Shown piece by piece: positions 21,739 through 28,861 of a stretch of 39,045 nucleotides of DNA (within the stretch, counting starts at the first letter, position 1; each line of letters starts with the position of its first letter). The translations under genes were made by a program, and so were the position numbers. Location of the stretch: IMG/VR virus record IMGVR_UViG_3300048631_000675, positions 1-39,045 of that record. One strand, written 5' to 3'. The notes beneath the pieces are model-generated. The model searched no databases, was not told where the DNA came from, and was given only the letters and a program-made list of their open reading frames with translations. Source of the DNA: a virus. Its lineage: Duplodnaviria; Caudoviricetes.

Positions 21739-21763
21739 CGAAAGCCCCAGCCGAAGCCGGGGC
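21739..21763 (-). terminator. Intrinsic terminator between the tRNA cluster and terS
   Basis: Minus strand GCCCCGGC-TTCG-GCTGGGGC followed by TTTCGCATTT. Confidence 0.65.
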
Positions 21764-21771
21764 CTGTTAGC

Positions 21772-21846
21772 TGGCGAGGGTGGGAGGAATCGAACCCCCG
21801 ACGCGCAGTTTTGGAGACTGCCGCTCTACCACTGAGCTACACCGAC
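21772..21846 (-). tRNA. tRNA-Trp (CCA) with two acceptor-stem mismatches
   Basis: GTCGGTG TA GCTC AGTGGTA GAGC G GCAGT CTCCAAA ACTGC GCGTC GGGGG TTCGATT CCTCC CACCCTC G CCA. Confidence 0.88.
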
Positions 21847-21917
21847 GCATTGCCGTGAGAGAAGACCGGCCCGTAACAAGGCGACGAGGCCAAGTCAGTG
21901 GAGCCGGTCATAAGGTA

Positions 21918-22006
21918 TGGTCGAGCGGGCCGGGCGTTACCCCGGCGACTTTGAAGCGGGTAGGTTCCCCATCCGCCTGCGCTTCCACTTTCAGCGCCGC
22001 CGCTCG
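21918..22006 (-). ncRNA. tRNA-like RNA (89 nt, CCA end, no canonical anticodon loop or T-loop)
   Basis: Perfect 7-bp acceptor stem CGAGCGG/CCGCTCG plus A-CCA; D-arm GCGCT-GAAAGTGGA-AGCGC; extended central stem; T-like arm GCCGG-GGTAACGC-CCGGC. Confidence 0.7.
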
Positions 22007-22072
22007 GGAAAGCCATCAGCTTGCCGGAATGGCGATGCGCGGGGGGTGCGATACAACTCACCCGCGCGATCT

Positions 22073-22107
22073 ATTATACCCATATCCTCGCCCGCCCCCT
22101 ACGTCAA
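22073..22107 (-). promoter_or_regulatory. Candidate late promoter
   Basis: Minus strand TTGACG-N17-TATGGG immediately followed by TATAAT, upstream of the RNA cluster and terS. Confidence 0.55.
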
Positions 22108-26998: not shown

Positions 26999-27192
26999 GC
27001 CGCTACCCTTTCCAGTTCGCGCCGCAGCGCCTCGTTTTCAGCCGTGAGCCGGTCCACTTGCCCGGCCAGGAAGTCGCGCTTCCGCTTGATGTCTTGCAGC
27101 GCCTCAAATTGCGCCTCGCACCGCTGGGTCAGTCGGGCGATCTCGTTGCGCTGCTTTGCCATCGTGGCCTGCGCCTTGGGGTCCAGCTTCAT
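26995..27192 (-). CDS. Coiled-coil hypothetical protein
   Basis: GGAGG RBS; ATGA coupling. Confidence 0.6.
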   Translation of the reverse strand: MKLDPKAQATMAKQRNEIARLTQRCEAQFEALQDIKRKRDFLAGQVDRLTAENEALRRELERVAA

Positions 27193-27995
27193 GCGGCCTC
27201 CACTACGGCGCGGTATTGCGCCCAACGGTCGAAGTTGCGGTGACGGCCCGGCCAGGAATAGGACGGGTCGGCCATTGCCTGATGCTCGAATGGGCTGGCG
27301 TGGAGCGGTTCGCCTTTCAGCTTGCCCACGCGGGCCTGCTCGGACGCCATGTCGTCCTGCCCGTTGAAAGGGGCATACGAGATCCGGGCGCAGCGGACGG
27401 CGGACAGGTCGAGCAGGTGTTCGTGACACATGCCCGCCCGCTCGGCGTCGGTGATGTATGGCATGTGCCATTCCCCGATGGCGAGGTGCTGCGGCTCGGC
27501 TTCCTCGATGGCCTCGCGGATCATCACGGCGAGGTCGCGGAGGTGCGGCTCGGCGTCGGCGTGGTCGCGCAGGGCAAAGAAGCCGTTCCACTCTGTCGCG
27601 GTGACGAGGGCGTCAATCCACAGATACGGCTCAAGTAGCCTGTTAACGTTTTGCTTGTGCGCCCCCGCGACTTGGAGTAGCTGCGCGGTGAACGCCGCCG
27701 ACTTGGCCGAGACGCGCCACTCATTAGCACACCATGCGGCCTCGTCCTCGCTCATGGCTTCCTTGGCCTGCATCCCCGGCATGTTCTTGCCCCAGTGCCA
27801 CGGCACGAACGGCTCGTTACGAACTTCCTCGATCATCCGCTTGACCGGCACGGCCCGTGAGGAACGCGCGTTGCGGCTCATGGTCCGATGCGTCAGGATC
27901 TCGGGCCAGATGATGCGCGGCAAGCGCAGGTGCAGCGTGTAGATCGGCGGGCAGCCGTCGCACTCGCTGGCAAGGATCATCTTTGCGAACATCAT
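27189..27995 (-). CDS. thyX: Flavin-dependent thymidylate synthase, phage type
   Basis: EILTHRTMSRNARSSRAVP (variant of RHRxxS...S.R), HKQNVNRLLEPY, FFALR.H..AEPH, HASPFEHQA. Confidence 0.85.
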   Translation of the reverse strand: MMFAKMILASECDGCPPIYTLHLRLPRIIWPEILTHRTMSRNARSSRAVPVKRMIEEVRNEPFVPWHWGKNMPGMQAKEAMSEDEAAWCANEWRVSAKSAAFTAQLLQVAGAHKQNVNRLLEPYLWIDALVTATEWNGFFALRDHADAEPHLRDLAVMIREAIEEAEPQHLAIGEWHMPYITDAERAGMCHEHLLDLSAVRCARISYAPFNGQDDMASEQARVGKLKGEPLHASPFEHQAMADPSYSWPGRHRNFDRWAQYRAVVEAA

Positions 27996-28861
27996 GCCGC
28001 AGCCTCCACGATTGCGAGAAGCGTCTTGCGGATCTCGTCGTTGCTGTTTCCGGCCTTGCGCATCTCCTTGACGAGACGGGCGGCGGTGTCCTTGCAGGCT
28101 TCCATCGAGGTCGCCACGCACATGGCAGGCAGACGGCGATTGCGCGGGATGGAGATGCCCATGACCCGGCAGTCATGCTGCACCACGTCCAGCGGAACCC
28201 CGAGGACGATGGACATCTGACGTCCGCCCATGCCCTGCTCGATCAGCGCGGGGATCTTCGCGCGGCGGGCGGCGACCTTCGGGCAAGGAGCCGGGCCGGG
28301 GCGGCGCTGCTTGGGGTTCTTGTAGGCCGGGGCCGCCTTCGGCATCTTGATTCCGAGCGCCTTCACGTCGTCCCAGATCGTGCGGGAGTTGACCCCGCAT
28401 TGCGCTGCGATCTCGGGGGCAGTCATCCCCTTCCCCACCAGCTTGGAGACCTTGGCGCGGCGGGCATCCACACGGGCGCAAACGGACGGCAGGCGAGCGG
28501 GGCGCGGGAACGTGCGGCCCATGGCCTTCGCATCGGCGGAAACCGTGTGAGTGCTTACGCCAAGCGTTGTGGCGATCTGCTCGCGGGTCATGCCCTGATC
28601 CATGAGGCCGATCACGGTTTCGCGCCGCTGGATCTGCTCAGGCGTCGGCCCGGCCTTCTTGCGGTTGAAATGCCGCTGCATCGACCCGCGATAGAGGGCC
28701 GTTGCCCGCTCCTTGTCCTTCGGCACCAGCCGGTTGATTTTGCTGCACCAGATATACTCGATCTCGGCGGCGCTCGCCCCGGTGGCGCAGCGGGTGACTT
28801 TACCCGCCGCAACCTTCGCGTCGATCAGGGCGCGTTCTTCTGCGGTGATCGTGGCGGGCAT
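27992..28861 (-). CDS. Protein with three tandem HTH-like repeats
   Basis: Three ~37-aa repeats of the form RRxxV..L...GMT..qIA..lGVs..tV..D.k.lG. Confidence 0.75.
   Translation of the reverse strand: MPATITAEERALIDAKVAAGKVTRCATGASAAEIEYIWCSKINRLVPKDKERATALYRGSMQRHFNRKKAGPTPEQIQRRETVIGLMDQGMTREQIATTLGVSTHTVSADAKAMGRTFPRPARLPSVCARVDARRAKVSKLVGKGMTAPEIAAQCGVNSRTIWDDVKALGIKMPKAAPAYKNPKQRRPGPAPCPKVAARRAKIPALIEQGMGGRQMSIVLGVPLDVVQHDCRVMGISIPRNRRLPAMCVATSMEACKDTAARLVKEMRKAGNSNDEIRKTLLAIVEAAA

What the first reader, a model, noticed from the sequence alone, without database searches (positions are those of the whole stretch)
21918..22006. Unannotated 89-nt tRNA mimic with CCA end but no anticodon loop
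Seen (minus strand): CGAGCGG-CG-[GCGCT GAAAGTGGA AGCGC]-A-[GGCGGATGGG GAA CCTACCCGCT]-TCAAAGTC-[GCCGG GGTAACGC CCGGC]-CCGCTCG-A-CCA. It has a perfect 7-bp acceptor stem, discriminator and CCA, a 2-nt linker and a D-like loop with GG. The anticodon arm is replaced by a long stem with a 3-nt loop, and the T-loop lacks TTC. All stems pair, which argues for selection on structure rather than decay. It lies in tandem with tRNA-Trp in the late leader. Inference: a processed, non-decoding tRNA-shaped RNA, for example a decoy for tRNA-targeting defence nucleases or toxins, a ligand for a synthetase or RelA, or a processing signal for the late mRNA.
Basis: partly seen in the sequence, partly recalled or inferred. 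Interest (0 to 1): 0.82.

Follow-up and report, generated by a model that had tools for sequence, protein, structure and literature searches.

The report
Loop-locked tRNA-shaped phage RNA family
This stretch is the shortest copy of a conserved gene family, found in over a hundred phage and bacterial lineages and matching no catalogued RNA family, that is predicted to make a small RNA with a tRNA-like outline, locked by its own loop-to-loop pairing around a swappable middle part, and that likely acts on a host tRNA-handling protein, though its job is untested.

Summary
The 89-nt cloverleaf is real and belongs to a widespread family with no Rfam match: 122 distinct copies in 111 lineages, plus a bacterial subfamily in 19 of 401 genomes of one family. 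The conserved core is a closing stem, an invariant CG linker, hairpin P2 (9-nt loop), a 32-204-nt middle domain and hairpin P4 (8-nt loop). All stems covary. The two loops pair with each other (U-A in 96, C-G in 12 lineages), a lock unlike the tRNA elbow. Copies sit before terminase genes, in early operons, in tRNA arrays, in tandem and among housekeeping genes. In 16 of 109 a promoter points at the first base. No shared phage protein, no Ro60 and no antisense target was found. Best reading (0.4): a stand-alone RNA that presents a tRNA-like corner to a host factor as a decoy or dock. Expression and function are untested. It could lie among Fremin 2023's candidates, whose alignments I could not read.

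The parts
21918..22006 (-). Whole element in this phage (85-nt core plus ACCA); its middle domain ties for the shortest in the family
   Evidence: model R2 scores it 70.3 bits, next best place in the window 13.6 bits (the window copy is in the training set)
22000..22006 (-). P1 closing stem, 5' strand (pairs with 21922-21928)
   Evidence: 8 of 9 modelled pairs show changes on both sides
21998..21999 (-). 2-nt linker CG, at the place of tRNA positions 8-9
   Evidence: C in 111 of 111, G in 110 of 111 (partly fixed by patterns and filter); 39 of 44 hits keep G-CG when the pattern leaves it free
21979..21997 (-). P2 hairpin: 5 bp and a 9-nt loop GAAAGYRGA; loop letters G21988 and U21987 pair with the P4 loop
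   Evidence: 4 of 5 stem pairs covary; loop-loop covariation
21947..21978 (-). Variable middle domain (32 nt here: one hairpin and a short tail), in the place of the anticodon and variable arms
   Evidence: 32-204 nt, unrelated between lineages; conserved within the bacterial subfamily
21929..21946 (-). P4 hairpin: 5 bp and an 8-nt loop R-N-U-N-R-C-G-N, abutting P1; loop letters A21937 and C21936 pair with the P2 loop
   Evidence: 5 of 5 stem pairs covary; the loop emerged unasked in a search scored on pairing alone
21922..21928 (-). P1 closing stem, 3' strand
21918..21921 (-). ACCA after the stem: present here, not a family feature
   Evidence: 4 of 111 lineages, 3.9 expected
21772..21846 (-). 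tRNA-Trp(CCA) gene, 71 nt downstream; likely co-transcribed (inferred)
22073..22107 (-). Promoter-like hexamers (TTGACG and TATAAT, 23 nt apart) about 65 nt upstream of the element; inferred, not listed by the consensus scan
   Evidence: read; one search did not report it
21742..21765 (-). Stable hairpin after tRNA-Trp, possible terminator (short U tail)
   Evidence: z -3.7; not listed by the terminator scan

Best explanation
The element is one copy of a conserved, covarying gene family of phages and some proteobacterial chromosomes that likely makes a stand-alone small RNA, predicted to fold into a tRNA-like L shape locked by base pairs between its two conserved loops, and that would work by offering this corner to a host tRNA-handling protein as a decoy or docking site. 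Shown: the family, three covarying stems, the loop-loop pair, the variable middle domain, and the lack of anticodon and encoded CCA. Inferred: transcription as a discrete RNA starting at the first base of P1 (or cut out of a tRNA-array transcript); coaxial stacking of P1 on P4; a host partner (no phage protein travels with it, and bacteria keep their own copies). Least certain: that the partner is tRNA machinery, such as a tRNA-cutting or tRNA-sensing defence protein that would meet a tRNA-like corner with no anticodon loop to cut.
For: Layout as in tRNA: 7+5 bp helix with no spacer on the 3' side, 2-nt linker, second arm. Covariation: 18 of 21 pairs change on both sides, 0 of 500 shuffles reach it (rows were picked for pairing, see full report). 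Loop-loop pair U-A 96, C-G 12, U.G 1, A-U 1, A.G 1 of 111. Among 21 lineages found without fixing that letter: C-G 12, U-A 7, p 2e-5 uncorrected for kinship; both pair types occur with both P2 stem types. Own promoter pointing at the first base in 16 of 109 (controls 0-3), its distance tracking P1 length (rho 0.69, n 16). Contexts too varied for a cis element; tandem copies. Sits 2-5 nt from tRNA genes in three lineages and within 300 nt in 12 of 111; T-arm-like remains inside the middle domain in 7 of 111 (shuffles 0.13). No phage partner: the best shared protein family among 24 carrier genomes is the large terminase, 12 of 24. Single-copy subfamily among housekeeping genes.
Against: No RNA data: the only runs were contigs that cannot show ends or level. 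The tRNA letters that proteins read at the elbow are absent (TTC in 0 of 111 P4 loops, GG in 13 of 111 P2 loops, C instead of U at position 8), and the lock is antiparallel, unlike G18-U55/G19-C56 (tRNA geometry recalled). P1 is 7-11 bp or more and starts with the transcript, so it does not look measured like an acceptor stem. 18 of 24 carrier genomes have no ARAGORN tRNA. The bacterial subfamily conserves its middle domain strongly, which a pure decoy would not need. No partner was identified.
Confidence: 0.4

Rival explanations
1. Chassis and cargo: the core is a folding and end-protecting clamp, perhaps docking on a host protein unrelated to tRNA, and the exchangeable middle domain carries the activity, as the effector domain does in Y RNAs.
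For: The middle domain is free between lineages but almost invariant within the bacterial subfamily, with two complementary segments in 16 of 16 parsed copies. Tetraloop hairpins are enriched in the middle domains, 48 against 25+-5. Both RNA ends are buried in P1.
Against: No complementarity to the own phage beyond background (own match longer than all controls in 1 of 24). No enriched protein-binding word such as GGA. The window's cargo is one 32-nt hairpin. Middle domains fold only slightly better than shuffles (mean z -0.36).
Confidence: 0.2
2. The invariant junction is a catalytic or ligand-binding core (a self-cleaving ribozyme or an aptamer) with a variable peripheral arm.
For: About 15 near-invariant letters cluster in the linker, both loops and the A before P4 (102 of 111), with a short pseudoknot. 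Known small ribozymes have this pattern and occur in phages (recalled).
Against: No Rfam ribozyme or riboswitch match. No circularly permuted form among the fetched loci (searches were not designed for it). No metabolic theme downstream, and many copies face away from their neighbours.
Confidence: 0.13
3. A cis-acting leader element, such as a put-like RNA that modifies RNA polymerase for read-through of long phage operons.
For: Often at the very start of a predicted transcript and ahead of terminase or early operons; an antiterminator-like gene lies upstream in L041 and L080.
Against: Also between terL and portal (L329, L334, L335), inside tRNA arrays, in tandem, antiparallel to its neighbours (L431) and among housekeeping genes. 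Terminators are not enriched downstream (11 of 94 against 7).
Confidence: 0.1
4. A tRNA-like processing signal (RNase P or RNase Z substrate) that punctuates tRNA arrays or late mRNA.
For: 2-5 nt spacing to tRNA genes in L082, L113 and L276; 12-bp P1/P4 helix.
Against: Copies with their own promoter have no leader to cut; 18 of 24 carrier genomes lack tRNA genes; 99 of 111 have no tRNA within 300 nt.
Confidence: 0.08
5. An RNA that receives CCA after transcription and is charged by a synthetase or sensed by RelA.
For: Seven P1 pairs are kept in 104 of 111; CCA can be added enzymatically (established knowledge); this copy encodes it.
Against: No conserved discriminator or acceptor identity letters. 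Encoded CCA is at chance level while neighbouring tRNA genes mostly encode it. P1 is often longer than 7 bp.
Confidence: 0.07
6. A decayed tRNA gene or a chance fold.
For: 7-bp stems with NCCA are common in this GC-rich window.
Against: 111 lineages, covarying stems and loop-loop pair, 75 of 84 against 0 of 84.
Confidence: 0.02

Closest known systems
tRNA (Rfam RF00005), including 8/4 and 9/3 allo-tRNAs (Mukai et al., PMC5389517; passages read)
   Same: Order of parts, 7+5 bp coaxial helix, 2-nt linker, two loops that meet; some copies lie in tRNA arrays.
   Different: No anticodon arm, no TTC, no conserved GG, no encoded CCA, closing stem of free length, different loop-loop lock, middle domain up to 204 nt.
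YrlA bacterial and phage Y RNAs (Chen et al. 2014, PMC4201824; abstract and section 6 read)
   Same: Non-decoding RNA with a tRNA-like part and a separate variable part; in phages and bacteria.
   Different: YrlA is circularly permuted (T arm before D arm, capped acceptor), keeps tRNA's own invariant letters, has a 5' GNCGAA motif and lies near Ro60. This family has the normal order, none of these letters, and no Ro60 in 34 carrier virus records or 10 host genomes.
Phage T4 RNA C and RNA D (rnaC, rnaD; NC_000866)
   Same: Small stable tRNA-array RNAs without an anticodon, function unknown; rnaC holds an 8-nt loop that fits the P4-loop pattern.
   Different: Model R2 gives at most 10.7 bits there; rnaC has an ordinary T arm and I saw no P2 arm.
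GOLLD and ROOL RNAs (Kretsch et al. 2025, PMC12286853; Weinberg et al. 2017, PMC5737381; passages read)
   Same: Phage and prophage RNAs of unknown function, often near tRNA islands, sometimes outside prophages; GOLLD can hold tRNAs in a linker.
   Different: Several hundred nt long and forming cages; this core is about 53 nt; no Rfam match to either.
C4 antisense RNA of phage P1 and relatives (recalled; in Rfam)
   Same: Small cloverleaf-like phage RNA with a closing stem and variable parts.
   Different: No Rfam match at any threshold tried; no complementary target found in the own genome.

Membership tests
tRNA | Anticodon arm (5 bp, 7-nt loop with U33 and purine 37) | tested here: not met
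   2 of 111 have such an arm at the position; none in the window
tRNA | T loop with TTCR and D loop with GG; U8, A14 | tested here: not met
   TTC 0 of 111, GG 13 of 111, position 8 C in 111
tRNA | 12-bp acceptor/T helix and 2-nt linker | tested here: met
   7 pairs in 104 of 111 plus 5-bp P4, but P1 often runs longer
tRNA | 3' CCA on the mature RNA and aminoacylation | not testable with these tools
   Encoded CCA is at chance level; enzymatic addition could not be tested (contig-only runs)
YrlA / bacterial Y RNA | Ro60 (TROVE) gene nearby or in the genome | tested here: not met
   0 of 34 virus records, 0 of 10 host genomes (genomes may be incomplete); controls rang in 2 of 14
YrlA / bacterial Y RNA | 5' GNCGAAN(0-1)G motif and permuted T-AS-D order | tested here: not met
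   Motif in 0 of 111; order is D-like, then T-like; no Rfam match
T4 RNA C / RNA D | Sequence and structure likeness | tested here: not met
   R2 best 10.7 bits, E 0.57, in the T4 tRNA region, filters off
Any Rfam 15 family (GOLLD, ROOL, C4, tmRNA, riboswitches, ribozymes) | Score at the gathering threshold over the element | tested here: not met
   Window, 20 loci at gathering, 20 and 6 loci by E-value: no gathering-level match over any copy
Self-cleaving ribozyme | Site-specific self-cleavage | not testable with these tools
   Needs in vitro transcription
put-like antiterminator RNA | Cis-acting read-through of downstream terminators | tested here: inconclusive
   Contexts argue against it; terminators 11 of 94 against 7; no assay
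Candidate RNAs of Fremin et al. 2023 (PMC10690425) | Identity with one of 8,495 IMG/VR candidates | not testable with these tools
   Alignment archives too large to read; readable tables held neither the motif words nor the contig ids tried

The most novel reading that the evidence does not exclude
A modular RNA chassis shared by phages and Proteobacteria: a 53-nt core with its own loop-loop lock docks on a common host factor, and phages plug in exchangeable middle domains (tRNA remains, hairpin arrays, a pseudoknotted domain in the bacterial subfamily) to redirect or block that factor. It would be a Ro60-independent counterpart of Y RNAs and a new class of RNA-based counter-defence or host control.
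Probability: 0.2. Interest if true: 0.88.

Novelty: new variant of a known kind. Interest (0 to 1): 0.72.

Why it matters
Small RNA genes are a blind spot of phage annotation. This one is invisible to ARAGORN and Rfam, yet it recurs in unrelated temperate phages of Alpha- and Gammaproteobacteria and has been kept on bacterial chromosomes. It shows a second way to lock a tRNA-like corner, with direct covariation support, and a core that tolerates 32-204 nt of insert. If it decoys tRNA-targeting defences or docks on translation machinery, it adds an RNA-only counter-defence; if it is a chassis, it is a natural scaffold for small RNAs. Cultured carriers exist (phage Ssp-JY40, PP438430; Methylobacter tundripaludum SV96; Henriciella mobilis M65), so it can be tested directly.

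Tried and rejected
Finding relatives through terS: 2 loci, neither with the element. The P4 hairpin alone as a pattern: 6 hits, none a member. Two-arm gapped patterns: 3 of 33 and 3 of 27 hits were members, the rest chance or one coding family. BLAST of INPHARED: only tRNA hits, plus Ssp-JY40 and Yong-M3-232 as members. Plasmids: one member (L431) and one decayed copy (L432) among the two hits fetched. 'UGAAA T-loop' reading of P2: dropped because the U pairs and changes to G-C in 10 of 111. Linker CG pairing with the P4-loop CG: no covariation available; the single CU linker (L319) does not support it. Ro60, a shared phage protein, antisense targets, CsrA-type GGA words, a permuted form (the 3 rows were one tandem pair): none found. 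RNA-seq: 6 RNA runs held part of the L178 stretch, all as contigs; cover was flat across element and neighbours, with no joints and no loose end at the element's own ends, so nothing on expression, ends or CCA. Alignment A2 had three rows on the wrong strand and was discarded. The tree of the 64-column core is poorly resolved: 8 changes for 10 C-G rows, one-clade test p 0.047; I do not lean on it. Literature: 10 full-text searches gave no description; the 3 papers are on animal-virus vaccine proteins and were not opened. A likeness of P4 to the P8 hairpin of bacterial RNase P RNA is recalled and was not tested beyond Rfam.

Full report
Observation. The window is a complete temperate phage record (provirus, 39,045 nt) with terS, terL, portal, head genes and an integrase. 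The quoted 89 letters lie at 22006-21918 on the minus strand, 71 nt before tRNA-Trp and ahead of terS. They fold as described (-45.2 kcal/mol, z -2.58), with one A.C mismatch in the middle stem. ARAGORN and Rfam see only the tRNA-Trp. A 7-bp stem with NCCA occurs 13 times in the window, so the single copy was suggestive, not decisive.

A family. An exact search for the first hairpin found one other phage with the same hairpin, a similar third hairpin, a closing stem changed at three pairs, a longer middle and no CCA. Patterns for the first hairpin in viral, genome and metagenome collections gave 31, 79, 27, 105 and 44 stretches. Non-circular test: of 84 distinct hits with the 9-nt loop, the linker and 260 nt of downstream sequence, 75 carry the third hairpin and a matching closing stem; 0 of 84 do on the opposite strand. 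When the third hairpin was chosen by pairing alone, its loop came out the same in the well-paired cases. Covariance models R1 and R2 added members from sampled genomes: 8, 6, 6, 3, 3, 3, 4, 4 and 2 of 151 genomes had matches. Each count includes the centre genome chosen for holding it, and 1-2 weak matches per search were not members on inspection. The model search is insensitive: 8 genomes without a match had full-length BLAST matches. A filter that needs at least 4 of 5 pairs in both hairpins, 5 in the closing stem and a P4 loop ending in CGN kept 209 sites, 122 distinct sequences and 111 lineages with unrelated middle domains. It drops deviant members such as L094, L134, L361, L365 and L423. 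Of the 13 lineages with a named host, 11 are Alphaproteobacteria, 1 Gammaproteobacteria and 1 unplaced Pseudomonadota.

Anatomy. P1 (closing stem), linker CG, P2 (5 bp, loop GAAAGYRGA), middle domain of 32-204 nt ending in A (102 of 111), P4 (5 bp, 8-nt loop), then directly the 3' strand of P1. On 40 hand-picked rows, 15 of 19 pairs and 18 of 21 pairs change on both sides, with no shuffle of 500 reaching that; the percentage paired is partly circular because rows were chosen for pairing. P1 pairing by position from the junction is 111, 111, 111, 111, 111 (forced), 111, 104, 91, 74, 61 of 111: a 7-bp core that often runs on. CCA at the tRNA position occurs in 4 of 111 (3.9 expected), with no peak at any offset, whereas 15 of 19 neighbouring tRNA genes encode it.

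The lock. The sixth letter of the P2 loop and the fifth of the P4 loop change together: U-A in 96 lineages, C-G in 12, U.G, A-U and A.G in one each. It is the strongest non-stem signal in an all-against-all mutual-information scan. The U-A count is inflated because the patterns fixed the U; among 21 lineages found otherwise the split is 12 C-G, 7 U-A, 2 other. Both types occur with both versions of the fifth P2 pair, so at least one change recurred; the tree test is weak. The neighbouring invariant G and C make a second pair. A third is possible: P2-loop letter 4 is A in most phage copies but U or C, able to pair with the invariant G, in 15 of 16 parsed copies of the bacterial subfamily. The pairing is antiparallel, unlike the tRNA elbow (recalled), and the tRNA elbow letters are missing. 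An L shape is inferred from topology and this lock; it is not shown.

Gene context. Terminase genes follow within 1.5 kb in 8 of the 49 members then in hand (window, L042, L080, L085, L096, L097, L159, L171). Others follow terS (L095), lie between terL and portal (L329, L334, L335), beside recombination and replication genes (L076, L079, L090, L106, L115, L125), antiparallel to a capsid operon (L431), in tandem (L090, L175) or within 300 nt of tRNA genes (12 of 111; 2, 4 and 5 nt away in L082, L276, L113). In 16 of 109 a sigma-70-type promoter ends 14-18 nt before the linker (twelve control windows 0-3), and its distance tracks P1 length (rho 0.69, p 0.003; exact in 9 of 16), so the RNA would start at the first base of P1. 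In the window the promoter-like hexamers lie about 65 nt further up (read, not listed). Terminators are not enriched (11 of 94, control 7). Only 6 of 111 are spanned by a long same-strand frame.

A bacterial subfamily. Three model hits lay among housekeeping genes. BLAST with one of them found full-length copies in 19 of 401 genomes of the family that holds Bradyrhizobium manausense (24 with partial matches), one match per genome. Of 55 neighbouring frames scanned, those with Pfam names were transporters, amylases, dehydrogenases and cell-wall enzymes in varying order, none a phage structural gene (only 1.5 kb each side seen). Here the middle domain is conserved too and holds two complementary segments that could form a second pseudoknot, invariant and so without covariation support.

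Partner and cargo. Among 24 carrier phage records (the window and 23 of the 33 others, mostly the more complete ones) no protein family is shared beyond the large terminase (12 of 24) and SSB (8 of 24) (BLAST would miss remote families). Ro60 is absent from 34 virus records and 10 host genomes. Middle domains match their own phage no better than other phages. They are mildly structured, enriched in tetraloop hairpins (48 against 25), and 7 of 111 hold T-arm-like remains. RNA runs were contig-only and uninformative.

Mechanism. A free-standing gene that moves between unrelated phages without a partner protein, and that bacteria keep, points to a host target (inference). The conserved surface is the corner made by P1/P4 and the locked loops, with nothing conserved at the 3' end or at the anticodon position. 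I therefore put most weight (0.4) on a decoy or dock for a host factor that reads tRNA-like corners. Phage tRNAs are known to counter tRNA-cutting defences (PMC11464382, PMC11555353; search listings and abstract starts only), which makes such defences the first candidates. The chassis-and-cargo reading (0.2) overlaps with this and is favoured by the bacterial subfamily. Ribozyme or aptamer (0.13), cis antiterminator (0.1), processing signal (0.08) and charged mimic (0.07) remain open.

Comparison and novelty. It works, on this reading, like YrlA or T4 RNA C/D, but fails their membership tests and matches no Rfam family. Papers seen: Chen 2014 (abstract, section 6), Mukai 2017, Kretsch 2025, Weinberg 2017 and Fremin 2023 (passages). 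Ten full-text searches found no description; the library lacks most subscription papers. Supplements that bear on novelty could not be read: Fremin 2023 alignments and Weinberg 2017 (I recall that its motifs are in Rfam). Sequence look-ups in the scan's notes with four members found nothing; word look-ups showed other tRNA-shaped phage RNAs, and I did not compare their sequences. Verdict: a real, apparently undescribed RNA family with a covariation-supported tertiary lock; a new variant of the tRNA-shaped non-coding RNAs; function untested. Interest 0.72.

Noticed in passing
L433-L451 (genomes): Single-copy bacterial subfamily among housekeeping genes, with an almost invariant middle domain and a possible second pseudoknot; deserves its own study.
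   Followed up: partly
L365:1266-1395(-) and L423:4748-4932(+): Subtype with a 6-nt P2 loop and a changed P4 loop in both copies; L423 is a second, different copy in the phage that holds L042. L365 lies between an integrase-type arm domain gene and a HipA-like gene.
   Followed up: partly
L058/L411, L367, L370, L361: Copies with an expanded P2 loop (12 nt; an inserted hairpin in L361) that keep complementarity to the P4 loop.
   Followed up: partly
L430:909-1172 (T4 rnaC and rnaD): rnaC holds an 8-nt loop fitting the family's P4-loop pattern, and rnaD holds a 6-nt stretch complementary to it: RNA C and RNA D might pair with each other.
   Followed up: no
window 21847-21917 (-): Stable hairpin between the element and tRNA-Trp (z -3.5); not looked for in relatives.
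   Followed up: no
window 22007-22075 (-): Two-hairpin leader between the promoter-like hexamers and the element (z -1.9).
   Followed up: no
L079, L095, L261, L279, L343: ARAGORN calls tRNA-like folds (two at default threshold, three at a lowered one) inside the middle domain.
   Followed up: partly
L097:1136-1492: An RF-1-domain (ribosome-rescue type) gene ends 2 nt before the element.
   Followed up: no
L431:2371-2600: Member on a plasmid record that carries an N4-type capsid gene, antiparallel to it and followed by a broken tRNA-like sequence.
   Followed up: partly
L014:1185-1400: Multi-hairpin non-coding stretch before a tRNA-Gly gene; not a member of this family and not scanned against Rfam.
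   Followed up: no
window 27189-28121 (-): ThyX-type thymidylate synthase gene in a small temperate phage.
   Followed up: no
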